Shown here in pieces: positions 25,888-49,122 of a stretch of DNA of 64,000 nt. A program made the position numbers and the translations under genes. Below the pieces are notes generated by a model. It made no database searches. It was not told the DNA's origin and was given only the letters and a program-made list of their open reading frames with translations. The DNA lies in the NCBI GenBank assembly GCA_963756375.1, contig CAVWNJ010000005.1, positions 1,640,440 through 1,704,439 on the forward strand, written 5' to 3'. The DNA comes from an uncultured Actinomycetota bacterium. Lineage in GTDB: Bacteria > Actinomycetota > Actinomycetes > Actinomycetales > Microbacteriaceae. How positions within the stretch are numbered: the stretch's first letter is position 1; each line of letters opens with the position of its first letter.

Positions 25888-25899
25888 TGGGGTACCTGG
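25888..25899. repeat. 12-bp direct copy (tggggtacctgg) of the 3' end of tRNA-Gln (49052-49063); candidate distal att site of an integrated element
   Basis: Exact 12/12 match in the same orientation. Expected chance occurrence in this window is about 0.01 at 70% GC. Confidence 0.4.
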
Positions 25900-25934
25900 C
25901 CGCCCGTGTCGGAGGGCGCACGTAGGGTCTGGGC

Positions 25935-26522
25935 ATGCACGACCGCAGCACTTCCCCGCCCGACGTGACCGGGTGCGCTCTTCTTGTCGGAGGCCGGCCG
26001 TGCCAGACCCCGATCGACCCCGACTCGCCCATCGCTCTCTGCACGGCTCATCTCCTCACCGCTCACGACTGGATCGTGCGCGATGTGGGTGTCACCGACC
26101 TGCTCCCCTCGCCCTGCCTCGCCTGTGGTTCTCGTCTCGGCGCCCGCTATCCGTCGGGCTGGCTATGCGCGATCTGCGAGTGGCGGCAGGGCGAGGTGCC
26201 CGGTGCGGATGTCGCGCCGCCGCGCGTCGACGTGGTCTACTACCTCCGCTTCGGCGACCGCATCAAGATCGGCACCTCCGGCAACCCGCGCCAGCGGCTC
26301 GCCGGGCTCCGCTACGACGAACTGCTCGCGTTCGAGCGCGGTGACCGCGCCCGCGAGCAGCAGCGCCATGCCCAGTTCTCCCGCCATCGCCTTGCCCGCA
26401 CCGAGTGGTTCGAGTCGCACGACGCCCTCACCCGACACGTTGGCGCGCTGAGCGCCGGGGTCGACGATCCCTGGCAGCGCTACGCCCGCTGGAAGAGCGA
26501 GGCTGCTGCGCTCGGCGGGTAG
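25935..26522 (+). CDS. GIY-YIG nuclease superfamily protein of the T5orf172/MUG113 type with an N-terminal Cys-rich zinc-finger-like region
   Basis: VYYLRFGDRIKIGTSGNPRQRLAGL ... FERGDRAREQQRHAQFSRHRLARTEWFE matches the T5orf172 signature. N-terminal CxxC...CxxC...CxxC. Phage/defence-island associated family. Confidence 0.75.
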   Translation: MHDRSTSPPDVTGCALLVGGRPCQTPIDPDSPIALCTAHLLTAHDWIVRDVGVTDLLPSPCLACGSRLGARYPSGWLCAICEWRQGEVPGADVAPPRVDVVYYLRFGDRIKIGTSGNPRQRLAGLRYDELLAFERGDRAREQQRHAQFSRHRLARTEWFESHDALTRHVGALSAGVDDPWQRYARWKSEAAALGG

Positions 26523-26738
26523 CGGCGCAACGCATCATCCGAAAGGCGCAAAGTCGCCGTCCCGAGGCATGATCCGCTCGCACTCCCCGACCCCGCTCGT
26601 GCCGTCGAGCATCCGCGAGGTGCATCCCACAGCGCCGAGGGTTGCGCCGGGCGGAGGAAGAACCGCCTATGGCCGCGCTCATAACGTTCTGGCGCGGGAC
26701 CAAGAGGAGCCGCAAAAACCGAGCGACAGGAGCTGGTC

Positions 26739-26936
26739 ATGGGCTGGATCAAATGGGCGAAGAAGATCTACGAACTCGTCAAGTACATCGGGAGCCGGGT
26801 AGGCACGTGGGGCGCAACCAAGGTCAAGAAGATGACCGCGTGGGTGTGGGCCAATAAGGGCACCATCTACACGTGGCTCGAGCGTGGTTCGACCATCGCC
26901 TGGATCGCCGGCGAGATCTACCGCCGCGTTTCCTAG
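26739..26936 (+). CDS. leaderless class IId bacteriocin of the lacticin Q / aureocin A53 family (65 aa, Trp/Lys-rich)
   Basis: MTAWVWANKGTIYTWLERGSTIAWIAGEI aligns with lacticin Q AVQWAWANKGKILDWLNAGQAIDWVVSKL and aureocin A53 SAAWKYKGKVLEWLNVGPTLEWVWQKL. No leader or double-Gly site. RBS aggag 8 nt upstream. Local GC about 57% against about 70% for the genome. Confidence 0.7.
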   Translation: MGWIKWAKKIYELVKYIGSRVGTWGATKVKKMTAWVWANKGTIYTWLERGSTIAWIAGEIYRRVS

Positions 26937-26941
26937 CGCGT

Positions 26942-26981
26942 GATTCGGTGCGGTCGGGCGTGCGTTCGACCGCACCGAATC
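26942..26981 (+). terminator. 15-bp perfect stem hairpin (gattcggtgcggtcg ... cgaccgcaccgaatc) immediately after the bacteriocin gene; likely partial terminator or attenuator before the PH-domain genes
   Basis: Seen directly in the sequence. A structural gene followed by a leaky terminator and then immunity genes is the classic bacteriocin arrangement. Confidence 0.5.
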
Positions 26982-27068
26982 AGCCTTGAGACGGTAGAGC
27001 GACGAGAGAGGAGCACGGATGATGGTAGCCATGACGATTGACGCGCCGGCAGACCCGCGGGCCGCGAG

Positions 27069-27563
27069 GTGGAGCGACCCCCGCACGTTCTCGGTCGTGG
27101 CACCCACGGCCTGGCGCCCGCCGCCCTGAAATACGAGAACATCAGGACGCTGATCCTCGCCGCCATCCTCACGCCGCTCGCTGTGGCCGCCTGTTTTCAG
27201 ATCCCCTCCCCGGGCTGGCGCATCGCGGCCTTCGTCGCCCTGGGTGTCCTCACCTTGGCGACGTTCGCGATCGACATACCGTTCGTCAACCGCTGGGAGT
27301 TTCAGAACACCACCTACACCGTCACCCGCGACACGGTCTTCATCCGTCGCGGTCTTCTCCTTCGCCGAACGACGACGATCTCCACCGCTCAGATACTCAA
27401 TGTCGAGATCGCACAGGGCCCACTCCTCCGTGCATTCGGTCTGGTGAAGGTGAAGTTCGCCTGCATCGCAGACGTCGAAAGCCTTACCGGGCTCACCCCG
27501 GAGGCGGCAGAGACGATACGCGACACCGTTCTCGATTCCCAAGGCGGAGTCGCAGATGACTGA
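27069..27563 (+). CDS. YdbS-like bacterial PH-domain (bPH_2) membrane protein
   Basis: 164 aa with two N-terminal TM helices followed by a PH-like domain. ATGA overlap with the downstream YdbT-like gene, mirroring the B. subtilis ydbS-ydbT pair. GTG start, uncertain. Confidence 0.65.
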   Translation: MERPPHVLGRGTHGLAPAALKYENIRTLILAAILTPLAVAACFQIPSPGWRIAAFVALGVLTLATFAIDIPFVNRWEFQNTTYTVTRDTVFIRRGLLLRRTTTISTAQILNVEIAQGPLLRAFGLVKVKFACIADVESLTGLTPEAAETIRDTVLDSQGGVADD

Positions 27564-29214
27564 TCTTCTCGAGGCCGCGCCAGCAGCTGCGAATCGCAGA
27601 CTCCCCAAGGCCTACCTTGGAGCGTCGTACCTCGCACACGGTGTGGCTACGCTCGGGTCCCTTGCCGGGGCCCTCGTCTTCCTCGCCAATCCCGACATCT
27701 GGCCGGGGAGATTGGCGGTCGCCGTCTTCGCGGCCTTCTTCCTGCTTCGCGTCATCGATCCGCTCTACGAGTGGGCGACGACCCGGATGACCATCACGAC
27801 CCATGACTTCCGGGTCACGTCGGGCCTGCTGCACAGGCGCACACGCAGCATCAGGTGGAGCGCTGTGCACTCCATTGAAACGACCGCACCGTGGGCGTAT
27901 CGGCTGTTCGGGTTGGTTCGAGTCCGTATCGCCCAGGGCGGGGACGGCTCAACCCAGGTGACGCTCGCTGGAATAACGACGCAATTCCGCGACGAGATCC
28001 TGGCACACTCGCCCGTACCGGACTCCGGCTCGCAGGACGAAGCATCCGGCTCGCAGTCCCGGGAGGCGGAGTCCCCCTCCGGCCGCCGGGAGATCGACGC
28101 GTCCCCCGATCCACGTGGTGAGCTCGTCTATCGCGCGTCAGTCGGTGACCTCGTGGTGGCGAGCATCCTATTCGGCCGGTTCGCGGTGGTGGCGATAGCG
28201 ATCGCCTTCGCGCTGTTCGAGCAACTCGATAATTTCGGCCTTCTCGGCATCCTCGATGCGCTCAACGGAGTGGGCGTGGCCGGACTCTCCACGATCGTGG
28301 CGATCGCCATCGTTGGCCTGGGAGTCGCCGCTAGCGTGGTTCGGTTCAGCCGACTGCAGGTACGCATTACCGGGCTTGGTGGCATCGCGGTCTCCTATGG
28401 CCTTATCGAGACCAATGACCGCGTCATCGACAGCGCCGGCGTCACGGGGGTCGTGCTCCAGCGCAACGCGCTGGAGATGATTCTCGGACGGGTTCGACTC
28501 GGGTTGCTCACCACCGACACCAGCCAGCAGTTCGGATCGAACCTTCTGCTCCCGTCACTGCCGCGCAACACGGTCAAGACAATCCTGGACGCCGGATTCA
28601 GAGATCGCGTGCCGGCTGAGACCCTCGCCTCACGACGAGGTCATCCCGTGCGGTCGATCATTGCCTTCTCCGCGGTCACCTCTGTTGCGGCCGGTGCCGG
28701 CTGGTGGATGCACGGGCTCGGCATGCCGCTCGGACTTGCAGCGGTCGGGGCCCTTGCTCTGTGGGCCATCATCGCCACGTCTGCCCGCCCGTTTGTCACC
28801 ACACTCCGCTACGACGTAGACGCGCAGCATGTGGCGCTTCGCACGAGCTTCATCAAGGAGCGCGACGTTTACCTCGACTCCCTTTCAATTCATCTCGTCA
28901 CGAGCACCGCTGTGCGAAACCGCTCGCGCTTTGCCACCGTGCACTACTACGCAGGCGAACCACACCAGCGGGGGTCGGTGTGGTTCTCCGAGGCGAACCT
29001 CGACGCGCTCCAGGCGCAGCTCGGCGAGCGAGACCGGCGAGCAGCCACCCTCCGGTCCTCTCGCGACGCGGCGCGACAGCGACGTCTGAGCGCCGACTCC
29101 CTAGGAGACGTCGACGACGCCAGCTTTGGCGGCTCGCACGAGAACCTGCACGCGGTCCCTGACGTTCCACTTCGTCATGATCCGCCGCAGGTGCGACTTG
29201 ACCGTCGCCTCTGA
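27556..29214 (+). CDS. YdbT-like membrane protein with three bacterial PH (bPH_2) repeats
   Basis: 552 aa with alternating TM hairpins and three PH-like repeats (e.g. RMTITTHDFRVTSGLLHRRTRSIRWSAVHSIE). Architecture matches YdbT. Confidence 0.75.
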   Translation: MTDLLEAAPAAANRRLPKAYLGASYLAHGVATLGSLAGALVFLANPDIWPGRLAVAVFAAFFLLRVIDPLYEWATTRMTITTHDFRVTSGLLHRRTRSIRWSAVHSIETTAPWAYRLFGLVRVRIAQGGDGSTQVTLAGITTQFRDEILAHSPVPDSGSQDEASGSQSREAESPSGRREIDASPDPRGELVYRASVGDLVVASILFGRFAVVAIAIAFALFEQLDNFGLLGILDALNGVGVAGLSTIVAIAIVGLGVAASVVRFSRLQVRITGLGGIAVSYGLIETNDRVIDSAGVTGVVLQRNALEMILGRVRLGLLTTDTSQQFGSNLLLPSLPRNTVKTILDAGFRDRVPAETLASRRGHPVRSIIAFSAVTSVAAGAGWWMHGLGMPLGLAAVGALALWAIIATSARPFVTTLRYDVDAQHVALRTSFIKERDVYLDSLSIHLVTSTAVRNRSRFATVHYYAGEPHQRGSVWFSEANLDALQAQLGERDRRAATLRSSRDAARQRRLSADSLGDVDDASFGGSHENLHAVPDVPLRHDPPQVRLDRRL

Positions 29215-29763
29215 CAGAAAGAGTTCTTCGGCGATCTCGGCGTTGGACATCCCACGGGCGAGCAATTCCACGACGTTGCTCTCGCGCGGGGATATCTGCT
29301 CCGACTCCTGAAGCGGAACAGAGGCGGGTGCAGGGGCGTGCGAGGCGACCGAGCGCACGAGTTCGCGAGCGATCCCGGGCGAGAGCACGTACCCGCCTTC
29401 GTGCACGCTTCTGATGGCCGCAACGATCTGTTCCGGCTCGGTGTCCTTCACGAGGAAACCGACCGCGCCCGCCCTCAGCGCGGCGATCACTGATTCATCG
29501 GAGCCGAACGTCGTGACGGCGATGACCCGGATGCCCGGCGAACGCTCTGCGAGCTGACCGATCGCGGTGATCCCGTCGCCGCCGGGCATGCGGATGTCCA
29601 TGAGCACGACATCCGGCTCGATGGCACGGCAGAGGCTGATGGCGGTCGGGCCATCCGGAGCCTCGCCGACGACGGTCATATCGCGAGCGGACTCGACGAA
29701 GATGGCGAGGGCGCGCCTGACGAGAGCCTCATCGTCAACGATGACCACTCTTACGTCGGACAT
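29101..29763 (-). CDS. NarL/FixJ-family response regulator with LuxR HTH
   Basis: 220 aa with receiver motifs ([17 protein letters not shown], KD) and a C-terminal LuxR HTH ([35 protein letters not shown]). Confidence 0.85.
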   Translation of the reverse strand: [220 protein letters not shown]

Positions 29764-29873
29764 GTCGAAAGTCTAAGTGAGCGGTTGCCGTCTCCCGGCG
29801 GACCCCGCTACGTCTCAAGGACGTATCGATCGGTAAATGGACCTGTCAGGATCTGTCTGGACATCACCACCGC

Positions 29874-31148
29874 ATGAGAACGAATCACCGAGGAGCCAGC
29901 CGTGTTCACCTTCCTGCCATACGCCAACGATTCCAAGTCGATCTGGGGCGTTTTCTGCCAGTGGCTCAAAATCTGCCGTCCCTGACCCTTCGGCGCCCGC
30001 CGTCCGGATGGCGCGGACTCGATGGGTTCTGGCAGTTCGTTCCGCTGGCACGGCTGCTGAGGATCACGCTGTTGATCGTCGTGCCCCTCGGGGTGGTCGT
30101 CGATGGAGCACTGCGCCTCGCCGGCGAGCCTGCGGGCGGCTTCATCGAATTCGCCTTCTCGACAGCGACCAGCGGATGTCTGCTCCTGATGCTCTGGCGG
30201 CCGCCGGTTGCTGCGGTCTTTCTGGCGTCAGCCGGGTTCGTCGCGGTCGCCATCAACGAGGGGGGCGGCTATCTCACCGCCGTGACCGCGAGCGTTGGCC
30301 TGGTCGTGTACTGCTGTGCCAGGTCGTTCGCCGTGGCGTACGGTTCGATCGTCGTCGGCTGGATAGTGGTCTTCGTCGCCATCCCTCCCGGTCTCCCCCG
30401 AGGCGGTGTCGTCACGCTCTTCGTGATCGGACTCATGTCTGCGGCGGTGGGGTTCTCGCTACAGGCGATGGTCCGCCGCAATGGGGCATTGCGTGAGGCC
30501 CTGGATCTTCATGACGAGCGGCTCGACGATGAGCTTAGAGCGGAGCGCAGTCGTATAGCCGATGAGTTGCACGACATCATCGCCCACGACATCACGATCG
30601 TCGCGATGCACGCGCGCGTGCTCCAGCACACGAGTGATCCCGAAGTGCGATCCGTCTCGCAACAGGCGATCAGCAGAGCGGCCGGTCAGGCCCTGGCCGA
30701 TACCCGGCGAGTTCTCAACCTCATCCACGGGCAACAGAGCGACCCGACTCCTGCCGTGACCGGCGCACCGGGCATCCGTTCCGTCCTCCCCCAGCTTGGC
30801 GATCAGCTTCGCGCCCTCGGTGACACCGTCACGGTCTCAATGGCAAATGGTCCGGAACTCGCGAAGAGCATCGATGCGACACTCGTTCGGATGGCGCGGG
30901 AGTCGGTGACCAACATCGTGAAGCATGGGGCCACACTGCGAACGGTGCACTTCGCGTTGGAGTTCTCCCGTGACTCCGTGGACCTCCGCATCGAGAACGT
31001 GCCCTATCGAGCCGATTCCGCCACGCACGGGCAGCCGGGCTATGGGCTTGCTCGCCTTCACGAGCGCGCCGATCTTCTCGGCGGATCGTTTGCGGCGGGG
31101 CAGGACGGCGAATCGTGGATTGCGCGGATGACCCTCCCGCAAAGGTGA
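29874..31148 (+). CDS. sensor histidine kinase (HisKA_3 / NarX-type, multi-TM N-terminus)
   Basis: H-box ERSRIADELHDIIAHDITIVAMHA and a C-terminal HATPase region. Divergent from its response regulator. N-terminal start uncertain. Confidence 0.8.
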   Translation: MRTNHRGASRVHLPAIRQRFQVDLGRFLPVAQNLPSLTLRRPPSGWRGLDGFWQFVPLARLLRITLLIVVPLGVVVDGALRLAGEPAGGFIEFAFSTATSGCLLLMLWRPPVAAVFLASAGFVAVAINEGGGYLTAVTASVGLVVYCCARSFAVAYGSIVVGWIVVFVAIPPGLPRGGVVTLFVIGLMSAAVGFSLQAMVRRNGALREALDLHDERLDDELRAERSRIADELHDIIAHDITIVAMHARVLQHTSDPEVRSVSQQAISRAAGQALADTRRVLNLIHGQQSDPTPAVTGAPGIRSVLPQLGDQLRALGDTVTVSMANGPELAKSIDATLVRMARESVTNIVKHGATLRTVHFALEFSRDSVDLRIENVPYRADSATHGQPGYGLARLHERADLLGGSFAAGQDGESWIARMTLPQR

Positions 31149-31277
31149 GCATGGACCGGGCTGTTCTACGCCCGCTCCCCGAACGACTCGCCAAACGCGA
31201 GCAGGACTTACCTGTTGCGCTCCGCCTAGGTTTGTAACACGGCGTGCACGCGGCAGGCCCAGCTAGGAGACGCCCCC

Positions 31278-32723
31278 ATGGACTTGTTCGGACTCGTCGG
31301 CATTGCCGTGGCTGCCGGCGCGGTATTCGTCGTCGCGATCATCAGCTTTCTTCTCTTCCGCGCCTGGTACCAGGTACCCAAAGCCGATGAGGCCATCGTG
31401 ATCGTGGGAAAGAGGGCCAGGGACAGCACCGAGGGCGAAGCGAACAAGATGACCGTGATCAGCGGTCGAGGCGCCTTCGTGAACAAGTTGACGCAGCGAT
31501 CCGACAGGGTCTCGCTGCGCTCGCGCCAGATCAAGTTCGAACCAACGGCGCAGACCAACAACGGTGTGACCATCGACCTCACCGGAGTCGCACTCGTGAA
31601 GATCGGCTCGACACCCGACCAGGTGCGACGCGCGGCCGAGCGCTTCGCCTCGCAGGATGACGCCATCGTCGTGTTCACCACGGAGCAGCTCGAGGGCGCT
31701 CTTCGCGGCGTCGTGGCGAAGCTCACGGTGGAACAGGTCATGCAGGACAGGCAGAAGCTCAGCGACGAGATCGCAGAGGGCATCTCCGGCGACCTGCTCG
31801 CGCAGGGCCTGGTGCTCGACTCTTTCGCCATCCAGGGCATCACCGACAAGAACAACTACATTTCGGCGCTCGGGGCGAAGGAAGTCCAGCGCGTGAAGCG
31901 GGAAGCGGATGTGGCGGAGATCGACGCCACTCGCGAGGTGAAGAAGCGCCAGCTGGCGGCGGATGAGGCGAACCTCATCGAACAGACCGCGCTCGACAAG
32001 AACAGCGCGGCGGCCAAATCCGAGGTCGGCCGCGCGAACGCCCAGGCCGAACAGGCGGAGAACCTCGCCCGCGCCGAAGCCGAGCAGGGCGTGCTGCTTC
32101 AGGAGGCGAACAACACCCAGGCCCGACTCGACTCCGAGGTGAAGAAGGTCGCAGACGCCGACAAATACCGGCAGCAGTCCGCCGCCGACGCGGAGGCGTA
32201 CACGCGGCAGAAGAACGCCGAGGCCGAGCGCCGGGTTGCTCAGGAGCGCTCCGATGCCGAGGCGTATGCGGTGAAGACGCAGGCCGAGGCGCGCGAGGCG
32301 TCGGCGTCGGCCGAGGCGGCCGCGGTGCGGGTGCAGGCCGAAGCGGAGGCCGAGGCGATTCGACTCCGCGGTGTCGCCACCGCCGAGGCGATCGCAGCGG
32401 AGGCGGCCGCGCTGAGCGAGAACCGGGACGCGATTCTGGCGAAGGAGATCATCGGACAGCTGCCGCAGCTGATGGCCGCATTCGCCAAGGGCTACGAGCG
32501 CGTCGGGGCCATTACCCTCATCGGCGGCGACAGTGCCGCAACTCACCTTGCCCGCGAGCAGTCCGCGAGCCTCAGTGCGACGTTCGAGAGCGTGAAGGCT
32601 GCAACCGGGCTCGACCTCGGCGCCATCATCCAGGGCCAGGCACTCGGCCGAGGGATCGCCGAGGGTTCACAGACGCCCACGACCGCAGGCAGTGGCGCGA
32701 GCTTCGACGAGACGATCGCGTAA
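31278..32723 (+). CDS. flotillin-like SPFH/band 7 protein (FloT/YuaG-like)
   Basis: 481 aa with an N-terminal TM, an SPFH domain and a long Ala/Glu-rich coiled coil (AEAEAEA repeats). RBS aggaga upstream. Confidence 0.85.
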   Translation: MDLFGLVGIAVAAGAVFVVAIISFLLFRAWYQVPKADEAIVIVGKRARDSTEGEANKMTVISGRGAFVNKLTQRSDRVSLRSRQIKFEPTAQTNNGVTIDLTGVALVKIGSTPDQVRRAAERFASQDDAIVVFTTEQLEGALRGVVAKLTVEQVMQDRQKLSDEIAEGISGDLLAQGLVLDSFAIQGITDKNNYISALGAKEVQRVKREADVAEIDATREVKKRQLAADEANLIEQTALDKNSAAAKSEVGRANAQAEQAENLARAEAEQGVLLQEANNTQARLDSEVKKVADADKYRQQSAADAEAYTRQKNAEAERRVAQERSDAEAYAVKTQAEAREASASAEAAAVRVQAEAEAEAIRLRGVATAEAIAAEAAALSENRDAILAKEIIGQLPQLMAAFAKGYERVGAITLIGGDSAATHLAREQSASLSATFESVKAATGLDLGAIIQGQALGRGIAEGSQTPTTAGSGASFDETIA

Positions 32724-32768
32724 GGCCGCGCTCATGGAACCGCTGGCGACAGCCCTTACGCTCACGGG

Positions 32769-33200
32769 GTGAGTCCCTCCCGCTCGATCGCCCGCTGGCT
32801 GCTCGGCCTCGCCCTGCTGTTTGCCGGAATCAGCCACCTCACGTTCGCCCGAGACGCATTCGTGGCTCAGGTGCCGTCGTGGTTGCCCCTGCCCGCAGAC
32901 TTCGTGGTCGTGGCATCCGGCGTCGTCGAGATCGGACTCGGGCTCGGCTTGATCCTGTTGGCGCGGCACCGCGTCGTCGTCGGATGGCTCACCGCCGCGT
33001 TCTTCGTCGCCATCTTCCCGGGCAACATCGAGCAATTCGTCAGCGGAACCGCCTCCCTAGGTCTCGACAGCGACCTGGCCAGGGGCATCCGGCTGCTCTT
33101 TCAGCCGCTGCTCGTGGTGTGGGCGCTCTGGTCGACCGGGGCATGGAAGGCGTGGCGCGATCATCGCAGGGATCGGGCCGGCAAAACTTCCCACCAGTAG
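32769..33200 (+). CDS. DoxX family membrane protein
   Basis: 143 aa with 4 TM. DoxX-like composition. GTG start. Confidence 0.65.
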   Translation: MSPSRSIARWLLGLALLFAGISHLTFARDAFVAQVPSWLPLPADFVVVASGVVEIGLGLGLILLARHRVVVGWLTAAFFVAIFPGNIEQFVSGTASLGLDSDLARGIRLLFQPLLVVWALWSTGAWKAWRDHRRDRAGKTSHQ

Positions 33201-33285
33201 CTCGGACTCGCTCCGGTGAGCTGCCGGCATGGCAGCACAAGCAAAAAGTCCGGCACCCGTGGCGAGACGGGAGACCGGACTTTTC

Positions 33286-33358: not shown

Positions 33359-33418
33359 CGTAAGCAACCTGACGAGTATGCCACACCAAGTACGTCGCCC
33401 GCCAATCGAGCGAAACGG

Positions 33419-34345: not shown

Positions 34346-34413
34346 GATGTCCGATTATCCAGGGCGCGGCAAGCTGCAGGAACGGGTCGGTGGCCGAACG
34401 TAGGATCGGGTTC

Positions 34414-40638: not shown

Positions 40639-40654
40639 TCAGCGAATCTAGCGC

Positions 40655-41893: not shown

Positions 41894-42013
41894 CCCTCCA
41901 GCGTAAGCGGGGTGCGGGATGCTCTGGCCCCACAACTGGGCCAAGACGACGTGAGCATTCCCCCCATAGAGTCCTGAGCATCCGCCGTACGCGGACCCGG
42001 TTTCGCCCAGTCG

Positions 42014-43154: not shown

Positions 43155-43201
43155 GCACTCCCCACTCGTTCACCTACCAATCACAGCCCGAGGCAGGATT
43201 C

Positions 43202-44263
43202 ATGTCGCACCAAACCCTCACCATCAGCCGCCCGCTCGCGACCCGCCGACCCCTCTGGACCGGCGTCGCCGCATCCCTCCTCGCGGTCGCCATGACCGCA
43301 GGCGGCGCAGCAGGAGCGTTTGCCGCGACGAGCGGGAGTGAGGTGGACCAGGCGGTCGAGTCGCCCCTCGTGTATGACCACCTCTGGGTGCACCCGGATA
43401 ACGCGTTCGCTCAGACCTTCACGGCCGGTTCCACGGGACTTCTCACGGACCTGGAGGTGTCCATCAGCAACGCGGACCATATGGTCACGGACGGCGTTGT
43501 CGAGATCCAGCGGGTCGACGCGGAAGGCTACCCCACCGGAATGGCCATCGCGTCGACGACGTTCGCGCCCAACCCGCCGAACGGCTGGCTGAGCCTGAGT
43601 TTCGCCGCCCCTGCCTCCGTGATCAGCGGCACGAAGTATGCCTTCGTGGCGACTATCACTCCCAGCGAGGCGGCCCCCTACGAGCACAACTCGTATCTCC
43701 TGGCGAACACCTCGAACGCTTACGGCGGGGGCGACCTCTTCGAGAGCGTGGATGGCCAGCCGTACGGGTCGCTCGACTCCGACCTGCTGTTCCGCACCTA
43801 TGTGGCTCCCCGCTCCGCACCGGATGCCCCCGCCGACGTGACAGCGGTGCCCGGCGATGGCCTCGCTACCGTGTCGTGGACCGCTCCCGCGGACCACGAC
43901 TCGGCCATCACGTCGTACACCGCCATGGCGTCGACCGGGGAAACCTGCATCGTCGACACCACGACCTGCACGATCGATGGCCTGGAGAACGGCACCGCGT
44001 ACACGTTCGCGGTCTATGCCACCAATGCCTTCGGCGATTCGGAGCTGTCGCTGGCGAGCGCGTCCATCATCCCGCTGGCCGATGTGAGCGCCCCGGTCGA
44101 TGTCGTCGTCGCCGACCTCGACACCACGCCCGCGGCATCCGGCGCACCCGAACTCGCGAAGACCGGAGCCGACTCCGCCGGAACCGCAACGCTCGCAGCC
44201 TTGCTTCTCGGCGGAGGGCTCGCGATGCTCCTCGTCGCACGGCGCCGCAGGCTTCAGGCCTAG
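43202..44263 (+). CDS. secreted Fn3-domain surface protein with LAKTG sortase signal (intact paralog)
   Basis: 353 aa with a signal peptide, an Fn3-like segment (VSWTAPADHDSAITSYTA...YTFAVYATNAFG), LAKTG, a TM segment and RRRR. Confidence 0.75.
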   Translation: MSHQTLTISRPLATRRPLWTGVAASLLAVAMTAGGAAGAFAATSGSEVDQAVESPLVYDHLWVHPDNAFAQTFTAGSTGLLTDLEVSISNADHMVTDGVVEIQRVDAEGYPTGMAIASTTFAPNPPNGWLSLSFAAPASVISGTKYAFVATITPSEAAPYEHNSYLLANTSNAYGGGDLFESVDGQPYGSLDSDLLFRTYVAPRSAPDAPADVTAVPGDGLATVSWTAPADHDSAITSYTAMASTGETCIVDTTTCTIDGLENGTAYTFAVYATNAFGDSELSLASASIIPLADVSAPVDVVVADLDTTPAASGAPELAKTGADSAGTATLAALLLGGGLAMLLVARRRRLQA

Positions 44264-44294
44264 CTCGAGCTCGACCCGGGCCGGGTTCGTCGCG

Positions 44295-44660
44295 CTACGG
44301 CGTGACGATCTCGAGCCCGGTCGAGGCGGCCGCGTCGTTCAGGCCGCCGATGTTGGTGGTGTCGCCGAACCCGAGCGCGGTCATCTGAGAGATGGCGTTA
44401 CCGGCGCGGTTGCCCGACTTGCAGTACACGAGGTACGTGCCGTCGGTGGGCAACTGACTCACCTGGGCCTCGAAGTCGGCGGACTGCACGTCGATGTTGA
44501 GTGCATCGACCAAGTGACCCTGCGCGTACTCCCCCGGGGTGCGCACGTCGATGACCACGGTGTCGGGTCCGACGGCAACGGGCTCGGAGGGTGCTGAGCA
44601 CCCGGCCAGGGCAAGTGAGGCGCTAGCGGTGAGGGCAAGAGTGATGAGCAGCTTCTTCAT
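44295..44660 (-). CDS. rhodanese-domain lipoprotein (single-domain sulfurtransferase)
   Basis: 121 aa starting MKKLLITLALTASASLALAGCS (lipobox). Active-site CKSGNRAG loop. Confidence 0.75.
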   Translation of the reverse strand: MKKLLITLALTASASLALAGCSAPSEPVAVGPDTVVIDVRTPGEYAQGHLVDALNIDVQSADFEAQVSQLPTDGTYLVYCKSGNRAGNAISQMTALGFGDTTNIGGLNDAAASTGLEIVTP

Positions 44661-44682
44661 GAGTGACTTTCTTGTGAGGTGA

Positions 44683-45210
44683 TCAGGAACGAGTGTCGGT
44701 GTGGACGATCGGCTCGCGGGCGTCGTCACGGGGCTCGAGTGGCGACTGGTCGGCCGACACCCGGCACGAGTTCTCCCGAGTGACGCGGGCAAACAGCGCC
44801 CAGCCGAGCAGGAGGATGGATGCGGCGGCCAGGTACGGCTGCACCGGTTCGAAGTACTGCAGCGCACCGGTGGTGCCGAGCGCGAGCAGCACGAGTTTGT
44901 TGCAGACCGGGCATCCGACCGCGAAGAACGCGACCATGCCGCCGGCCAGACCCAGTCGGCCGTCGGCCCGCCGTGGCGCGGCACCCTGCGGGTAGGCGAC
45001 ATAGGTTGCGGTGACGAGGCCCGCGAGAATCGCGCTCACGACGAGCACGGGCCATGCCCATGCGGTCGGCGGAATCTCCCTCGAAAAGATGGGATTCTCG
45101 ATCAGGTCGGTGGGGATCGCGATGAACAGCACGGTCGCTGCCGCTGTTAAAAGGGCTGTCCACCATCGGCGCGCGGGCCAGAGCCGGAAGCCGTTGAGGA
45201 ACGCGCTCAT
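44683..45210 (-). CDS. membrane protein with intramembrane CPVC motif (MauE/MerT/VKOR-like thiol-redox or metal-handling membrane protein)
   Basis: 175 aa starting MSAFLNGFRLWP (ATG 45208-45210) with 4-5 TM and GCPVCNKLVLLALG. Confidence 0.55.
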   Translation of the reverse strand: MSAFLNGFRLWPARRWWTALLTAAATVLFIAIPTDLIENPIFSREIPPTAWAWPVLVVSAILAGLVTATYVAYPQGAAPRRADGRLGLAGGMVAFFAVGCPVCNKLVLLALGTTGALQYFEPVQPYLAAASILLLGWALFARVTRENSCRVSADQSPLEPRDDAREPIVHTDTRS

Positions 45211-45557
45211 GACGCGAGCTGCCCGGCGAGCGCGTCGAGCCCGCCCTCGAAATAGTCCGCCCACCCTGCACCGGTTCGGCCGGGCGCGCTCGACTGCGCG
45301 AGCCAGGCGTCGCGGATGCCCGTGATGATGAGTCGCTGCGAAGCGTCGTCGGGGTCTCCGGTGGCGGCCGACCGGGCGGATCGTCGGATCGCTCGCCTGC
45401 CTTCGGCAAGTGCCGCAACCGCACCCTCCCGGTATTTCACGGTGGAGCGTGAGCCGCGATCGCCCGCGGGGGCACACAGCGACTGCCCGCCGGTCGAATC
45501 GACCAGACGGTTCAGCGCATCATTCTCGCGGACGATGAGGGTGTCGAGAAATGGCAT
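45207..45557 (-). CDS. hypothetical protein (116 aa), translationally coupled (ATGA) to the CPVC membrane protein
   Basis: ORF in an operon context. Weak resemblance only (ALNRL) to CsoR-family N-termini, and it lacks the C-H-C metal ligands. Confidence 0.4.
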   Translation of the reverse strand: MPFLDTLIVRENDALNRLVDSTGGQSLCAPAGDRGSRSTVKYREGAVAALAEGRRAIRRSARSAATGDPDDASQRLIITGIRDAWLAQSSAPGRTGAGWADYFEGGLDALAGQLAS

Positions 45558-45575
45558 GAGACTGTCAGCGGCGAA

Positions 45576-45692
45576 TCAGTTGCAGGTGCAGTGCTGGTCG
45601 CGGGGAACGTCGGCCATCACGTCTTCGACGTGGGCTCCGCATCCGGCCCAGGTGATCTTGTTGCACGCGTCACAACGGATGGGACTGCACAT
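45576..45692 (-). CDS. 38-aa Cys/His-rich small protein MCSPIRCDACNKITWAGCGAHVEDVMADVPRDQHCTCN (candidate metallothionein-like or zinc-ribbon peptide)
   Basis: Strong RBS AAGGAG 5-6 nt upstream of the ATG. 6 Cys and 2 His in 38 residues. First gene of the rhodanese operon. Confidence 0.5.
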   Translation of the reverse strand: MCSPIRCDACNKITWAGCGAHVEDVMADVPRDQHCTCN

Positions 45693-45729
45693 TGCTACTC
45701 CTTCGGCAGGGGATGTGAACACTGTCGAG

Positions 45730-45745
45730 TATACCCCCTAGGGTA
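45730..45745. promoter_or_regulatory. CsoR/RicR-type palindromic operator ATACCC-CCTA-GGGTAT about 40 nt upstream of the small Cys-rich gene
   Basis: Perfect 6-bp arms. Resembles the B. subtilis copZA CsoR site ATACCCTACGGGGGTAT and the mycobacterial RicR motif TACCC-N5-GGGTA. Confidence 0.45.
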
Positions 45746-46992
45746 TTTTCCGCAACGCTAGAGGCAACGGGCCGCCTTGGGCAGCGAAACAGAGGAGCGC
45801 GACGGGTCGGCGGCGGGATCCAGAGACCGGGGCTAAGTGGGGACAGAGGTCGGCGACGGGGCACGGGTACGGAAGGCAACGGGCCGCCTCGGGCAGCGGA
45901 CCTGCGCCTTCTCCGTGGGGTACGGGCGCATACCCGATCTCGCCTTGCACGTTGTCGGCGAGGGCGAGGGAATGGTAGTTGATGGTCATGGCACTGAGCC
46001 CGGAGTCGAACGAGGTCGCAGTTTCGTCCCATGAGGCGGAGGTGCTTCCCGGCGGAACCGACCCGCTGTCGATCAGATCCGTGTAGTACTGCAGCGCTTC
46101 GACGCCTTCAGGTGTGTCGAAGGCGAGGGACAGGTCGTCGGCAACGAGGTGACCGTCTCCGCCATTGCTCGCGAGCAATGTCTTGAAATCATCTGTCGCC
46201 AGTCGCCGACACCTGCCATGACGGTGGTGCCGTAGAGATTGTTCTCGGGTTGGGTGAAGAACGCCGCGACCTCCGCGTAGTCGTCCCACGTTTCGGGAAC
46301 CGTGAGCTCACGTCCGTACTCTTTCAGGAACGTGGCTTTTTGGGTCTCGTCGTTGAACAGGTCGGCGCGGTACCCCATGATGGCAACGTTCGCCTGAATC
46401 GGCATTCCGTAGACGTCAAAACCAGCGGAGGTTATGGCGCTCACGTCTGCCGGTTCATCGGTACTGGAAAATTGCTTCAGCGGATCACCGGCGTCGTAGA
46501 CCGCAGTGTCGTACAGCACCTTAGGAACGAAGTCAGAAAGGTCCGGGTCGGATTTTGTGTTCAGCTCGGGATTATTCAGGTATCCGCTGAGTGGTTCCAG
46601 GCTACCGACAAGCGCCGGCGCCCACGGTGTGTCGACCACCACGATGTCGTAGTAATCGCTGGAAGAAGCAAACTCAGAGAACACTTTCTGCTGCAAGGCG
46701 TCATACGGCTGCGTATCGATTGCAAGCTTGATTCCGAACTCGCTTTCGAACTTGGGGACCTGGGCCTGCAGCGCCTGCGCATTAGCTTCGGCCGTCGTGT
46801 AGAGAATGCGCAGGGTGTCAGGCTTACCGGTGGACGGCGCGCTGTCGGCGGCGCAACCGGAAAGGGCGAGAACGCCTACGGTTGCAGCCGCGAATCCCGC
46901 GGTGATGAACAGAGGAGCGCGACCGGGTCGGCGGCGGGACACCGAGGGACCGGGCCCCCGGACCGGCGGTAGCCGCTCGAGCAGATTTCTCA
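45738..46992 (-). pseudogene. ABC transporter sugar-binding protein, frameshifted (near 46205) and apparently 3'-truncated
   Basis: N-terminal ORF 46073..46992 (lipoprotein signal, SBP family 1 motifs) continues in another frame within 45738..46289 (LATDDFKTLLASNGGDGHLV...). The conserved C-terminal about 100 aa is missing. No cognate permeases nearby. Confidence 0.6.
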
Positions 46993-47235
46993 TTGCTTGA
47001 CAGGCGTGCAGCGGGGGCGTGTCCGACGGAACGCGCGGCGGCCGCGTGGACTCGGGCGAGAACGCCGCCGCCAGGACTGGGCACACGCCTTTCGCGCTGG
47101 GTGCTCATCCGACGATCCGTTGTCATGAACACATCTGACAACATTCCCATGGCTTATGTCAATCTTTACGCAAAAGTTCTTCGAAACTCGCGGCGTTAAT
47201 CGCGGCGCCACCGCATGTTGTGTTTGACTGTGGAT

Positions 47236-48423
47236 ATGACCGACGTCCAGCAACGAGCGCCGCGGCACGGCTCAGGGCCGGGCGAGTTGTTGCAAGTTTT
47301 TTTGGACGGCAGTGCACATACAAAGGCCCAGTTAGCACTGATCACGGGCCTCTCGCGATCTACGGTCTCGTCCCGAATTGATCTGCTCGTCAGCAGGGGT
47401 CTGCTCACACCGGCGGGAGAAGCCGCATCGTCAGGCGGGAGGCCTCCCGCCCAAATCGAGTTCAACCGCAGAGGTCGAATCATCATTGCAGCGGACTTGG
47501 GAGTGACCCATGGCGTTGTCGCGCTCGCTGATCTCGGCGGTGAACTTCTGGCGATTCACAGGGAACGTATCCGTATTGCCGACGGTCCCGAAGTAGTACT
47601 CGACTGGCTAGTGGCGTGCGCGCAAAGACTCCTGGCCGAGGGCGAATACGCAGTAGCCTCCGTGGCAGGCATCGGTGTCGGGGTACCCGGGCCTGTGGAG
47701 CACCTGACGGGCCGCCCAACAAACCCGCCTTTGATGCCCGGCTGGGATGGGTTCAGCATTCCCGACTACCTGCGTCGGTCATTCGATCTGCCGGTACTGG
47801 TCGACAATGACGTCAACATACTCGCGCTGGGCGAGCGAGCCATGCTTTGGCCCGGCGTCGCCGACCTCGTCTATATAAAGGTTGCCACCGGGATCGGCGC
47901 AGGGATCGTCAGCGGCGGCGCCCTGCAACGTGGCGCTGAGGGCACCGCGGGCGACCTCGGCCATGTTCAAGTTCCCTACAGCAAGCATTCCCCTCGTGAC
48001 CCCGAAGACGAGCGTGATCTGGAGGCTGTGGCAAGTGGGACCGCCATCGCAAACTGGCTCACCGCGCGCGGAACGACTGCCCGTACCAGCCAAGACGTTG
48101 TTGATCTCGTGCGTGCCGGCAATGACGAGGCCATTCAAGCCACACGCCAGGCGGGGCGGGAGATCGGCGAAGTTCTAGCCACGCTGGTCAACATATTGAA
48201 CCCTTCGATCATTGTCATGGGCGGAAGCATCTCCCGCAGCGGTGAGCACCTGCTCGCCGGAATGAGGGAGATCGTGTACCGTCGGTCTACCCCACTGGCG
48301 ACCCAAAACCTGTCAATCGTCCAGTCGCAATCAGGAGAGACGGGCGGCGTAATGGGAGCCGCCATCATGGTCATCCAGGAAGTCCTATCGGTCGACGCAA
48401 TCGACGCGCTCTGCACGGAGTAG
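47236..48423 (+). CDS. ROK family transcriptional regulator (NagC/XylR-type)
   Basis: N-terminal HTH followed by the ROK sugar-kinase-like domain (IGVGVPGPV, DNDVNILALGE). Alternative start at 47215. Confidence 0.8.
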   Translation: MTDVQQRAPRHGSGPGELLQVFLDGSAHTKAQLALITGLSRSTVSSRIDLLVSRGLLTPAGEAASSGGRPPAQIEFNRRGRIIIAADLGVTHGVVALADLGGELLAIHRERIRIADGPEVVLDWLVACAQRLLAEGEYAVASVAGIGVGVPGPVEHLTGRPTNPPLMPGWDGFSIPDYLRRSFDLPVLVDNDVNILALGERAMLWPGVADLVYIKVATGIGAGIVSGGALQRGAEGTAGDLGHVQVPYSKHSPRDPEDERDLEAVASGTAIANWLTARGTTARTSQDVVDLVRAGNDEAIQATRQAGREIGEVLATLVNILNPSIIVMGGSISRSGEHLLAGMREIVYRRSTPLATQNLSIVQSQSGETGGVMGAAIMVIQEVLSVDAIDALCTE

Positions 48424-49050
48424 TCGACGCTGGCTCGCGACTCGATCAGGTCGACATCCGCTGCGGCCATCGACGGAAGTGAAATGCTCCGCCGTTGTCG
48501 AGAGCGCCTAAGAGTCTTGCGGTGCGTTCCTTGCGCCTTGGTGCTGACGATCGTGGCGCTGACGACGAGAGTCGGCGGCAGCGTCGTCATGCGCCAGTGG
48601 CAGGTGGAAGGCCCGCGACCTTAGGTCATCGGCGTTGGCACAGTCGTCGGAGGCACCGTCACCGTTCACCAGGGCAGCCTCGCAGGCCCTGGGATTGGCC
48701 AGGCAGCACTGACGGCAGCGGCCGCTCCCGCGAACGGCGCCGTGTTCGATCTGCGGCTGAGAAACGCGGCGTCGGGAACCAGAAGTCCTGGAACCGTCTG
48801 GATCGAGTCGACCCTCGGTGGCACAGCTGGCCCGTTCACCGTCGGGTAGCCCGCCCCGACCGACATTGGGCCCGTCGTTGCGCAAGCAGCGGCGGGCCCA
48901 GCGCGCGACCGGAGGTGATCTGGATCGAGCAAATAATTCGTGATGCGCCCGCGATTGTGGCCCCTCTTGCCGAGCGGGAGAGCGCCACAAGGATGATTGT
49001 GGGTTAGCACCCCACCAACGAAAAAACCCCCGGAAACCGAGGGTCAACAG

Positions 49051-49122
49051 CTGGGGTACCTGGACTCGAACCAAGAACAAAAGAATCAGAATCTTCCGTG
49101 TTGCCAATTACACCATACCCCA
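49051..49122 (-). tRNA. tRNA-Gln (anticodon CTG)
   Basis: Minus-strand sequence TGGGGTATGGTGTAATTGGCAACACGGAAGATTCTGATTCTTTTGTTCTTGGTTCGAGTCCAGGTACCCCAG. Acceptor TGGGGTA/TACCCCA, anticodon loop TT-CTG-AT, discriminator G. A stem-loop plus T-run terminator lies at about 49000-49045. Confidence 0.85.

What the first reader, a model, noticed from the sequence alone, without database searches (positions are those of the whole stretch)
25888..49122. 12-bp direct repeat of the tRNA-Gln 3' end suggests a roughly 23-kb integrated element separating gltX/tRNA-Gln from tRNA-Glu and the rest of the chromosome
tggggtacctgg at 25888-25899 is an exact, same-orientation copy of the last 12 nt of the minus-strand tRNA-Gln gene (49052-49063). 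The estimated chance occurrence in this window is about 0.01. The interval between the two copies carries all the accessory content of the window: GIY-YIG, the bacteriocin cassette, tRNA-Glu, a lipid kinase, regulators, AKRs, LAxTG surface proteins, the rhodanese/Cys-peptide operon, a decayed sugar-binding protein gene and an orphan ROK regulator. The core ilv/leu/ser/gltX and met genes lie outside. In many actinobacteria tRNA-Gln and tRNA-Glu sit together beside gltX, whereas here they are 15.7 kb apart. No integrase is visible, and the 620 bp next to tRNA-Gln are non-coding, so the element may be a decayed island or a composite of successive insertions.
Basis: partly seen in the sequence, partly recalled or inferred. 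Interest (0 to 1): 0.55.

Follow-up and report, generated by a model that had tools for sequence, protein, structure and literature searches.

The report
Chance repeat at tRNA insertion hotspots
The 12-base repeat is most likely a coincidence and there is no single 23-kb inserted element; the region is an old, conserved gene scaffold with two tRNA-flanking spots where extra DNA has accumulated, one of which still holds a fragment of a broken integrase gene, which is an ordinary pattern of bacterial genome change.

Summary
The 12-mer TGGGGTACCTGG is at both stated places, in the same orientation. It is not beyond chance (BLAST E 0.5; about 0.13 expected empirically). A 98.9%-identical sister strain has only a 10-nt match at 25888.

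The interval 25888-49063 is not one element. It contains a block (tRNA-Glu, lipid kinase, MBL hydrolase, unknown gene, MerR; 33286-36688) that sits between tRNA-Gln and TerC/leuC, in the same order and orientation, across Microbacteriaceae. The sister strain is collinear across 25888.

What is there is two variable regions, each at the 3' side of a tRNA:
- VR-A, 36689-49049, 3' of tRNA-Gln.
- VR-B, 15409-33285, 3' of tRNA-Glu. The 12-mer lies in the middle of it.

Relatives show what real integrations at these tRNAs look like: intact tyrosine integrases, 42-87-bp att repeats and GC dips.

The "non-coding" 620 bp next to tRNA-Gln holds a 54-codon integrase relic (48453-48614, 74% identical to the tRNA-Gln-associated integrase of an ICE-like (integrative conjugative) element in Cryobacterium). 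The adjoining low-GC 3.2 kb (45834-49017: ROK regulator plus broken sugar-binding gene) is absent from the sister strain and is a remnant of a fuller sugar-uptake operon seen in a third strain.

This is ordinary genome plasticity, of low interest.

The parts
25888..25899 (+). Distal copy of the 12-mer TGGGGTACCTGG. It lies in the divergent intergenic region between a 98-aa ORF (25500-25796, -) and the T5orf172/GIY-YIG gene. Judged a chance match.
   Evidence: The sister strain has TGCGGGTACCTGG here.
49050..49122 (-). tRNA-Gln(CTG). The 12-mer copy at 49052-49063 is its T-stem and acceptor-stem 3' strand.
49025..49045 (-). Terminator-like hairpin plus T run directly after tRNA-Gln. It is shared with the sister strain, and the strain-specific DNA starts right after it.
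48453..48614 (-). Relic of a tyrosine integrase gene (54 codons, matching residues 238-283 of the 401-aa integrase next to tRNA-Gln in Cryobacterium zongtaii). It has the same orientation relative to tRNA-Gln as the intact genes in relatives.
   Evidence: tblastn E 1.3e-9 (L014) and 8.6e-7 (L071) against the whole window. BLASTP 34/46 identical. Too short for a Pfam hit.
45834..49017 (.). Strain-specific 3,184-bp segment abutting the tRNA-Gln terminator. It is replaced by 38 bp in sister contig_9716. GC is 0.626 against about 0.685 for the backbone.
47215..48423 (+). Intact ROK-family regulator. It is the orphaned regulator of a sugar ABC-uptake operon that is complete in contig_13597 and in a JGI contig.
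45896..46910 (-). Internal fragment of the solute-binding-protein gene. Start and promoter are lost (~450 bp), there is one frameshift, and the 3' end plus two permeases, ADH and an AP_endonuc_2 gene are lost (5.0 kb). It is 99.7% identical to contig_13597.
   Evidence: Bracketing short direct repeats.
36689..45833 (.). Remainder of variable region A (3' of tRNA-Gln): D-lyxose isomerase, two aldo/keto reductases, LysR, MFS, fn3/DUF4082 surface proteins and the Cys-peptide/rhodanese operon. It is shared with both close strains, absent at this position in more distant relatives, and of normal composition.
33286..36688 (-). Conserved core block inside the proposed element: tRNA-Glu 33286-33359 (-), YegS-type lipid kinase 33419-34345 (-), MBL-fold hydrolase 34390-35052 (+), unknown 35025-36017 (-), MerR 36014-36688 (-). 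Order and orientation match relatives.
15409..33285 (.). Variable region B (3' of tRNA-Glu, 17.9 kb). It holds a response regulator, PAS hybrid kinase, luciferase-like monooxygenase, Met-type ABC transporter, T5orf172/GIY-YIG, bPH_2 proteins, LuxR-type two-component pair, SPFH and DoxX. In relatives TerC follows tRNA-Glu after 80-6,960 bp.
14368..15408 (-). TerC-family membrane protein gene. It is the first backbone gene beyond tRNA-Glu in relatives, and leuC follows at 11492-12994.
49151..51621 (-). Backbone on the other side: FAD-dependent oxidoreductase (49151-50149) and gltX (50146-51621).
25935..26522 (+). T5orf172/MUG113 (GIY-YIG-like) gene directly right of the distal 12-mer. It has 60-73% identical homologues in many Microbacteriaceae genera, but in other chromosomal contexts.

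Best explanation
The 12-bp repeat is a coincidental match, and 25888-49063 is not a single integrated element.

The locus is an ancestral scaffold shared by Microbacteriaceae: serA, leuB, ilvE, FAA hydrolase, gltX, tRNA-Gln, (MerR, unknown gene, MBL), lipid kinase, tRNA-Glu, TerC, leuC. Extra DNA has accumulated at two places in it, each immediately 3' of a tRNA gene. In this genome these are VR-A (36689-49049, 12.4 kb) and VR-B (15409-33285, 17.9 kb).

Shown:
- In relatives, both tRNA 3' ends are used by tyrosine-integrase elements with long att repeats.
- Next to this window's tRNA-Gln lies a 162-bp relic of the same integrase family.
- The adjoining 3.2 kb is strain-specific, low in GC, and a deletion remnant of a ROK-regulated sugar ABC operon.

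Inferred:
- Site-specific integration at the tRNA 3' ends delivered DNA repeatedly.
- Later deletions removed integrases, att copies and most cargo.
- Recombination between co-occurring strains exchanged the tRNA-Gln-proximal piece. That piece is 99.4-99.7% identical to a strain whose neighbouring DNA is only 90.6% identical.
- The rest of VR-A and VR-B is older, ameliorated or intra-family cargo with no surviving scars.
For: 1. Chance level of the repeat.
- BLAST E is 0.51, with equal or better unrelated hits.
- 4.3% of comparable 12-mers recur in the window.
- The empirical expectation is about 0.13.
- The sister strain has only a 10-nt match.
- The match does not extend, and the discriminator base is missing.

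2. Conserved backbone inside the interval.
- Eleven loci have the minimal form tRNA-Gln, lipid kinase, tRNA-Glu, usually followed by TerC: L012, L015, L027, L127, L135, L136, L145, L147, L149, L150, L159.
- Six loci have MerR, unknown gene, MBL, lipid kinase in the window's order and orientation: L094, L101, L105, L116, L117, L161.

3. The sister strain contig_9716 is collinear over window 14513-35431 and 29716-45833. Its only indel is 45834-49017.

4. Composition. The proposed element has GC 0.669 against 0.683 outside, with no step at 25888. Only 45834-49017 deviates (GC 0.626; tetranucleotide distance 0.341 against 0.175 +/- 0.029).

5. Positive controls in relatives.
- L153: integrase 43 bp from tRNA-Glu, a 42-bp repeat 4.9 kb away, and a GC dip.
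- L019: an 87-bp repeat flanking an 8.3-kb islet at tRNA-Gln.
- L014 and L071: intact integrases about 390 bp from tRNA-Gln. L014 also carries SSB and a TraG/VirD4 coupling protein, so it is ICE-like.
- L010 and L035: decayed copies.

6. The integrase relic in the window.

7. The sugar-operon remnant.
Against: - No genome of the same genus with an empty VR-A or VR-B was available. The backbone is inferred from relatives at 43-57% (lipid kinase) and 65-82% (gltX) protein identity.
- The distal att site of the L014-type ICE lies beyond the fetched DNA, so a naturally short core for this integrase family is not excluded.
- The exact 12-mer is a rare word. In 171 loci it occurs only inside tRNA-Gln genes and in the L019 att repeat.
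- The window and its two close relatives are metagenome assemblies. The patchy 99.5%/90.6% identity and the short duplicated junction sequences could be assembly chimerism rather than biology.
- Neither VR-A (apart from its last 3.2 kb) nor VR-B carries any direct mark of site-specific integration. Their origin by integration is inferred from the family pattern only.
Confidence: 0.85

Rival explanations
1. A single ~23-kb island integrated into the 3' end of tRNA-Gln. The 12-bp copy at 25888 is the displaced tRNA fragment (attR), and the island has since lost its integrase.
For: - The repeat is exact and on the correct side and strand.
- An integrase relic lies at the tRNA-proximal end.
- The 12-mer is rare in related DNA.
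Against: - The interval includes tRNA-Glu, lipid kinase, MBL, the unknown gene and MerR. These are fixed between tRNA-Gln and TerC across the family.
- The repeat is at chance level and is only 10 nt in the sister strain.
- Genes left of 25888 (Met-type ABC, luciferase-like, PAS kinase) are just as non-backbone as those to the right.
- There is no compositional step at 25888.
- Real att repeats at these tRNAs in relatives are 17-87 bp and include the tRNA's terminal bases.
Confidence: 0.03
2. All of VR-A (36689-49049) is the cargo of one old integrative or conjugative element. That element entered at tRNA-Gln with the integrase whose relic survives, and its attR next to MerR has eroded beyond recognition.
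For: - The integrase relic is at the expected end and in the expected orientation.
- VR-A is absent at this position in many relatives, where MerR, MBL or the lipid kinase lies 46-1,200 bp from tRNA-Gln.
- An ICE-like element of the same integrase family exists in Cryobacterium.
Against: - No tRNA-Gln-derived repeat of 10 nt or more lies near 36.7 kb.
- GC and tetranucleotide usage over 36689-45833 are near backbone values.
- No conjugation, replication or excision genes are present.
- The relic travels with the 99.5%-identical ROK piece rather than with the 90.6%-identical remainder, which suggests separate histories.
Confidence: 0.15
3. The 3.2-kb difference next to tRNA-Gln, and its mosaic identity, are artefacts of assembling mixed strains from metagenomes. 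They would not be a real strain polymorphism.
For: - The window, contig_9716 and contig_13597 appear to be metagenome assemblies. The two contigs have adjacent ENA accession numbers.
- Identity jumps abruptly from 99.5% to 90.6% at 45755/45896.
- Short duplicated intergenic pieces bracket the SBP fragment.
- contig_13597 ends just before the tRNA.
Against: - The junction at the tRNA-Gln terminator is clean in both assemblies.
- The window's copy has its own deletions and a frameshift not present in contig_13597, so it is not a simple mis-join of that strain's sequence.
- The low GC is intrinsic to the segment.
Confidence: 0.1

Closest known systems
tRNA-gene-integrated genomic islands as defined by the Islander signature (intact tDNA, displaced tDNA fragment, tyrosine integrase; PMC4383910)
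   Same: - An intact tRNA-Gln with foreign, low-GC, strain-specific DNA directly 3' of it, and a tyrosine-integrase remnant in the canonical position and orientation.
- Relatives carry complete examples at the same tRNA-Gln and at the neighbouring tRNA-Glu (L153, L014, L071, L019).
   Different: - In the window the integrase is a 54-codon fragment.
- No credible displaced tRNA fragment exists.
It fails the integrase and coding-sequence (CDS) filters of that definition.
Integrative conjugative elements of Actinobacteria that insert into tRNA genes. From my own knowledge: pSAM2 in tRNA-Pro, SLP1 in tRNA-Tyr. Found here: the Cryobacterium zongtaii element in L014.
   Same: The relic is 74% identical over 46 residues to the integrase of the L014 element. 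That element sits at the orthologous tRNA-Gln and carries SSB and a TraG/VirD4-type coupling protein.
   Different: Nothing but the integrase fragment survives in the window. There are no transfer, replication or excision genes and no att pair.
Chromosomal hotspots or 'islets' of gene gain and loss between conserved core genes, many of which lack recognisable mobile-element genes (general comparative-genomics concept, from my own knowledge)
   Same: - Two fixed positions in a conserved scaffold have very different lengths and contents between relatives: 46 to more than 9,000 bp after tRNA-Gln, and 80 to 6,960 bp after tRNA-Glu. The values here are 12.4 and 17.9 kb.
- The cargo is mostly metabolic and regulatory.
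   Different: Here both hotspots coincide with tRNA 3' ends that are demonstrably integrase targets in the family. Hotspots in general often lack such an explanation.
The gltX, tRNA-Gln, tRNA-Glu arrangement next to serA, leuB and leuCD in other Actinobacteria
   Same: The flanking backbone is the same (serA, leuB, ilvE, FAA hydrolase, gltX ... leuC), and so are the two tRNA genes.
   Different: In 20 non-Microbacteriaceae loci the two tRNAs are 37-135 bp apart. In Microbacteriaceae a YegS-type lipid kinase gene always lies between them. The separation is therefore a family trait, not the result of the proposed island.

Membership tests
tDNA-integrated genomic island (Islander signature), applied to 25888-49063 | Intact target tRNA gene at one end | tested here: met
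   tRNA-Gln(CTG) at 49050-49122, found by ARAGORN and Rfam (57.9 bits).
tDNA-integrated genomic island (Islander signature), applied to 25888-49063 | Displaced fragment of the same tRNA at the other end, on the correct side and in the correct orientation, and beyond chance | tested here: not met
   - Side and orientation are correct.
- It is only 12 nt, lacks the terminal bases, and has E 0.51.
- The empirical expectation is about 0.13.
- It is 10 nt in the sister strain.
- Real fragments in relatives are 17-87 nt.
tDNA-integrated genomic island (Islander signature), applied to 25888-49063 | Tyrosine integrase gene inside the island | tested here: not met
   - There is no intact gene.
- Pfam on all main ORFs from 20-49 kb finds no Phage_integrase domain.
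- Only a 54-codon relic exists, at 48453-48614.
tDNA-integrated genomic island (Islander signature), applied to 25888-49063 | The interval is dispensable as a unit: it has no conserved backbone genes and relatives have an empty site | tested here: not met
   - It contains the conserved block of tRNA-Glu, lipid kinase, MBL, unknown gene and MerR.
- The sister strain is collinear except for 45834-49017.
tDNA-integrated genomic island (Islander signature), applied to 25888-49063 | Composition differs from the flanks (supporting, not defining) | tested here: not met
   GC is 0.669 against 0.683. It is 0.670 left and 0.660 right of 25888. Only 45834-49017 deviates.
Remnant of a tRNA-Gln-targeting integrative element (L014/L071 integrase family), applied to 45834-49049 | Integrase homologue directly 3' of the orthologous tRNA-Gln, in the same orientation | tested here: met
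   - tblastn E is 1.3e-9 and 8.6e-7. Identity is 74% over 46 aa.
- The relic is on the minus strand, like the tRNA.
- Intact or decayed homologues sit 200-410 bp after tRNA-Gln in L014, L071, L010 and L035.
Remnant of a tRNA-Gln-targeting integrative element (L014/L071 integrase family), applied to 45834-49049 | Presence or absence polymorphism between close strains, with one boundary at the tRNA | tested here: met
   3,184 bp are replaced by 38 bp in contig_9716, and the boundary is at the tRNA-Gln terminator.
Remnant of a tRNA-Gln-targeting integrative element (L014/L071 integrase family), applied to 45834-49049 | att direct repeats flanking the segment | tested here: not met
   No tRNA-derived repeat lies at or near 45834. 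The best is an 8-mer, GTACCCCA.
Remnant of a tRNA-Gln-targeting integrative element (L014/L071 integrase family), applied to 45834-49049 | Transfer or excision functions (e.g. TraG/VirD4, as in L014) | tested here: not met
   The only other content is ROK and an SBP fragment.
ROK-regulated sugar ABC-uptake operon | Regulator plus intact binding protein, permeases and catabolic genes | tested here: not met
   ROK is intact. The SBP gene is truncated at both ends and frameshifted. The permeases, ADH and AP_endonuc_2 genes present in L170 and L171 are missing.

The most novel reading that the evidence does not exclude
The scaffold gltX, tRNA-Gln, lipid kinase, tRNA-Glu, TerC may be a family-wide double landing pad. 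Cargo would be exchanged between co-occurring strains without a resident integrase, through recombination on short repeats derived from the tRNA 3' half and adjacent intergenic DNA. Two observations would then be footprints of such an integrase-independent route: the 87-bp-flanked, integrase-less islet in L019, and the window's patchwork of 99.5%-identical donor pieces bracketed by 25-39-bp duplicated recipient sequences.
Probability: 0.1. Interest if true: 0.4.

Novelty: new member of a known kind. Interest (0 to 1): 0.15.

Why it matters
The main value is corrective, and the biological significance is modest.
- A short repeat of a tRNA 3' end in a 67% G+C genome is not evidence of an island.
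- Synteny across relatives separated a false 23-kb element from the real features. Those are two tRNA-flank hotspots, an integrase relic and a 3.2-kb strain-specific remnant.
- For annotation, 48453-48614 should be marked as an integrase pseudogene fragment and 45896-46910 as a binding-protein pseudogene.
- For the family, the lipid kinase wedged between tRNA-Gln and tRNA-Glu is a stable synteny marker. The two tRNA 3' ends are useful places to look for integrative elements in Microbacteriaceae genomes.

Tried and rejected
- Looked for longer or imperfect tRNA-derived repeats. blastn-short of both tRNAs plus 100 nt of flank against the window found nothing better than chance anywhere in VR-A or VR-B.
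- Searched the window with the tRNA-Glu-associated integrase of L153. The best hit was E 0.25, inside murA, which is noise.
- Ran Pfam on the ORFs overlapping the 620-bp spacer and on the translated relic itself. There were no hits. Only homologous integrases from relatives exposed the relic.
- Examined a second possible integrase fragment at 48691-48843. BLASTP gives 28% over 32 aa, E 0.19, so it was rejected.
- Ran Rfam on the whole window. It found only the two tRNAs, and no RNA element explains the spacer.
- Tried to get the window's own record and more same-species contigs through exact-protein look-ups. Only contig_9716, contig_13597 and one 1.7-kb contig were found. P0001 and P0035 were not on record.
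- Checked the context of T5orf172 homologues for synteny across 25888. They lie in unrelated neighbourhoods (L082, L085), so they give no test of that junction. Only the ~35 nt next to the start codon is conserved.
- Looked for the attR of the L014, L071 and L010 elements within the fetched 8-9 kb. It was not found, and the elements run past the locus ends.
- Searched for the 38-bp filler of the sister strain in the window and in all loci, to decide between insertion and deletion. It is unique to that contig, so the test was uninformative.
- The Cys-peptide/rhodanese operon was suspected to be CsoR/CstR-like because of its palindromic operator. Pfam gave no support.

Full report
**The observation**

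TGGGGTACCTGG occurs exactly twice in the window, at 25888-25899 and 49052-49063, on the same strand. ARAGORN and Rfam place tRNA-Gln(CTG) at 49050/49051-49122 and tRNA-Glu(CTC) at 33286/33287-33359, both on the minus strand.

Read in tRNA sense, the word is CCAGGTACCCCA. That is the 3' strand of the T stem plus the acceptor stem. It stops 1-2 nt before the annotated end, so the discriminator G is not part of the repeat. Identity does not extend on either side. The distal copy lies in a divergent intergenic region between a 98-aa ORF and a T5orf172/GIY-YIG gene.

**Is it more than chance?**

- In this 67% G+C window, 5.2% of all 12-mer positions recur in direct orientation. For 12-mers with eight G+C the figure is 4.3%.
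- blastn-short of tRNA-Gln plus 100 nt against the window scores the hit at E = 0.51. A 13-mer elsewhere (inverted) scores better, and a 15/16 direct match at 6846-6861 scores the same.
- I ran the same scan on relatives as an empirical control: the last 40 nt of each tRNA plus 5 nt, downstream side only, same strand. Over 1.31 Mb it gave two apparently unrelated matches of 12 nt or more. That corresponds to about 0.13 expected for the 82 kb available here.
- The closest available genome is ENA ERZ25039498 contig_9716, 98.85% identical over 20.9 kb. It has one extra base inside the word (TGCGGGTACCTGG), which leaves a 10-nt match.

The repeat is real as sequence but not significant.

**Organism and relatives**

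gltX places the window in Microbacteriaceae. The best hits are 82% to a MAG and 79-80% to Glaciihabitans. I collected 80 loci around gltX from species-representative genomes and 80 metagenome loci around the lipid kinase gene, each with up to 10 kb of flank. I then mapped window proteins and tRNAs onto them.

**The backbone**

In 20 loci from other actinobacterial families, tRNA-Gln and tRNA-Glu are 37-135 bp apart. In 37 Microbacteriaceae loci they are 986-10,096 bp apart, with a YegS-type lipid kinase gene detected between them in 31 of the 37 at the threshold used.
- The minimal form is gltX, tRNA-Gln, lipid kinase, tRNA-Glu, TerC, leuC, with gaps of only 46-100 bp in the tightest loci. It is seen in L012, L015, L027, L127, L135, L136, L145, L147, L149, L150 and L159.
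- Six loci (L094, L101, L105, L116, L117, L161) have MerR, unknown gene, MBL, lipid kinase, tRNA-Glu. This is the order and orientation of window 36688 to 33286.

The block 33286-36688, in the middle of the proposed element, is therefore ancestral backbone. The separation of the two tRNAs is a family trait.

What varies is the DNA directly 3' of each tRNA.
- The distance from tRNA-Gln to the first backbone gene is 46-9,153 bp in relatives and 12,361 bp here. This is VR-A, 36689-49049.
- The distance from tRNA-Glu to TerC is 80-6,960 bp in relatives and 17,877 bp here. This is VR-B, 15409-33285.

**Close strains**

contig_9716 is collinear with the window over 14513-35431 and 29716-45833, and again from 49018 onward. 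The only difference is that window 45834-49017 (3,184 bp) is replaced by 38 unrelated bases. There is no empty site for a 23-kb element. There is a clean polymorphism that starts right after the tRNA-Gln terminator hairpin at 49045-49025.

That segment is the only compositional outlier.
- Its GC is 0.626, against about 0.685 for the backbone.
- Its tetranucleotide distance is 0.341, against 0.175 +/- 0.029 for backbone pieces of equal size.
- The proposed element as a whole is 0.669 against 0.683 outside. It is 0.670 left and 0.660 right of 25888.

**What real integrations look like in relatives**

- L153 has a 393-aa tyrosine integrase (Pfam Phage_integrase, 7.5e-23) 43 bp from tRNA-Glu. It has a 42-bp copy of the tRNA 3' part 4.9 kb away and GC of 0.59-0.63 against 0.68-0.77. 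A further IS and a 15-bp copy follow.
- L019 (a Mycetocola MAG) has an 8.3-kb islet after tRNA-Gln, flanked by an 87-bp direct repeat, with no integrase.
- L014 (Cryobacterium zongtaii) and L071 (a Microbacterium MAG) have 401-aa integrases about 390 bp after tRNA-Gln.
- In L014 the integrase is followed by low-GC DNA encoding a HEPN protein, a D12 methyltransferase, SSB and a TraG/VirD4-type coupling protein. This looks like an integrative conjugative element (ICE).
- L010 and L035 carry decayed copies of the same integrase.

Both tRNA 3' ends are thus genuine attachment sites in the family. Genuine repeats are 17-87 bp and include the terminal bases of the tRNA.

**The integrase relic**

Used as tblastn queries, the L014 and L071 integrases hit the window once, at 48614-48453 on the minus strand (E 1.3e-9 and 8.6e-7 against the whole window). 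BLASTP shows 34/46 identities to residues 238-283.
- The strand and position relative to tRNA-Gln match the intact genes.
- The fragment ends 30 bp from the stop codon of the convergent ROK gene.
- A second candidate fragment did not hold up.
- No significant relic of either integrase type used as a query was found elsewhere in the window.

**The rest of the 3.2 kb**

A third strain is ENA ERZ25039476 contig_13597 (L168/L170). At the same place it carries ROK, a complete 472-aa binding protein, two permeases, an alcohol dehydrogenase and an AP_endonuc_2 (xylose-isomerase-like) gene. A JGI contig has the same operon type.
- The window matches contig_13597 at 99.4% over 46957-49043 (ROK, relic, spacer). 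It matches at 99.7% over 45896-46910 (an internal binding-protein fragment with one frameshift).
- The window lacks about 450 bp at the gene's start and 5.0 kb covering its end and the downstream genes.
- The adjoining 42786-45755 is only 90.6% identical.
- The fragment is bracketed by 25-bp and ~39-bp direct repeats of local intergenic sequence.

My reading, which is inference, is that a cluster-bearing piece was recently shared between lineages and then decayed by deletion. It is missing altogether in the sister strain. Assembly chimerism among co-occurring strains is the main caveat.

**Mechanism, with status**

Shown:
- The conserved scaffold.
- The two variable positions.
- Active-type elements at both tRNAs in relatives.
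- The integrase relic.
- The strain polymorphism.
- The operon remnant.

Inferred:
- VR-A and VR-B grew by repeated integration at the tRNA 3' ends followed by loss of integrases and att copies.
- Homologous recombination moved the tRNA-Gln-proximal piece between strains.

Not shown: any integration scar for 36689-45833 or for VR-B.

**Comparison and novelty**

Against the Islander definition of a tDNA island (PMC4383910), the proposed 23-kb interval has the intact tRNA. It fails the fragment, integrase and backbone-gene criteria. The 3.2-kb piece qualifies only as a decayed remnant of such an island. This is a further example of a well-known kind of locus, in an uncultured Microbacteriaceae lineage.

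**Verdict**

The composite, decayed idea and the integrase hunch hold up. The 12-bp att site and the 23-kb element do not. Interest is 0.15.

Noticed in passing
window 45728-45746 and 44295-45692 (-): A near-perfect palindrome (TATACCCCCTAGGGTAT) lies just upstream of a 38-aa Cys-rich ORF (MCSPIRCDACNKITWAG...). That ORF heads a four-gene operon: 38 aa, 116 aa, 175 aa (weak MerT-like hit) and rhodanese. The palindrome is kept in the sister strain and, in diverged form, in contig_13597. It looks like an operator for a metal- or persulfide-sensing repressor, but Pfam gives no CsoR-type hit.
   Followed up: partly
L019 12534-12620 and 20856-20942: In a Mycetocola MAG, an 8.3-kb islet (MFS, isochorismatase, ABC transporter, GntR) with no integrase is flanked by an 87-bp direct repeat. 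The repeat comprises the 3' half of tRNA-Gln plus about 50 nt downstream. GC is 0.61-0.64 against 0.65-0.70 in the flanks.
   Followed up: partly
L014 13016-21443: Cryobacterium zongtaii TMN-42 carries an ICE-like element at the orthologous tRNA-Gln. It encodes an integrase, an Apea-like HEPN protein, a DUF4145 protein, a D12 adenine methyltransferase, SSB and a TraG/VirD4 coupling protein. GC falls to 0.54, and the element runs past the end of the fetched DNA.
   Followed up: partly
L014 12634-12665; also L035, L019, L071 directly after tRNA-Gln: A conserved ~25-nt motif (AGGCGCAGGATTCCGCGGCGAAA and variants) follows tRNA-Gln in several genera that carry, or once carried, this integrase family. 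It is probably element-borne attL sequence. The window and its sister strain have a terminator hairpin there instead.
   Followed up: no
L153 9562-15857: A metagenome contig shows a tandem array at tRNA-Glu. First comes an integrase element closed by a 42-bp tRNA fragment. Then comes an IS (rve transposase) closed by a further 15-bp fragment.
   Followed up: partly
window 45762-45898 and 46908-46946: Short direct repeats bracket the binding-protein pseudogene fragment. They are a 25-bp pair at 45762-45786 / 45874-45898 and a ~39-bp pair at 45788-45825 / 46908-46946. They could be recombination scars or signs of strain-mixed assembly.
   Followed up: partly
window 25900-25937: The ~35 nt before the T5orf172/GIY-YIG start codon (TGTCGG...CGTAGGGT, then 6 nt, then ATG) are conserved in homologues that sit in unrelated chromosomal contexts. 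This suggests a promoter that travels with the gene and a near-leaderless transcript. The protein itself is 60-73% identical across many Microbacteriaceae genera.
   Followed up: partly
window 33419-34345 (-): A YegS-type lipid (diacylglycerol-family) kinase gene wedged between tRNA-Gln and tRNA-Glu appears to be a synteny marker of Microbacteriaceae. It is absent from the same spot in 20 loci of other actinobacterial families.
   Followed up: yes
Nothing here identifies a bacteriocin.
   Followed up: no
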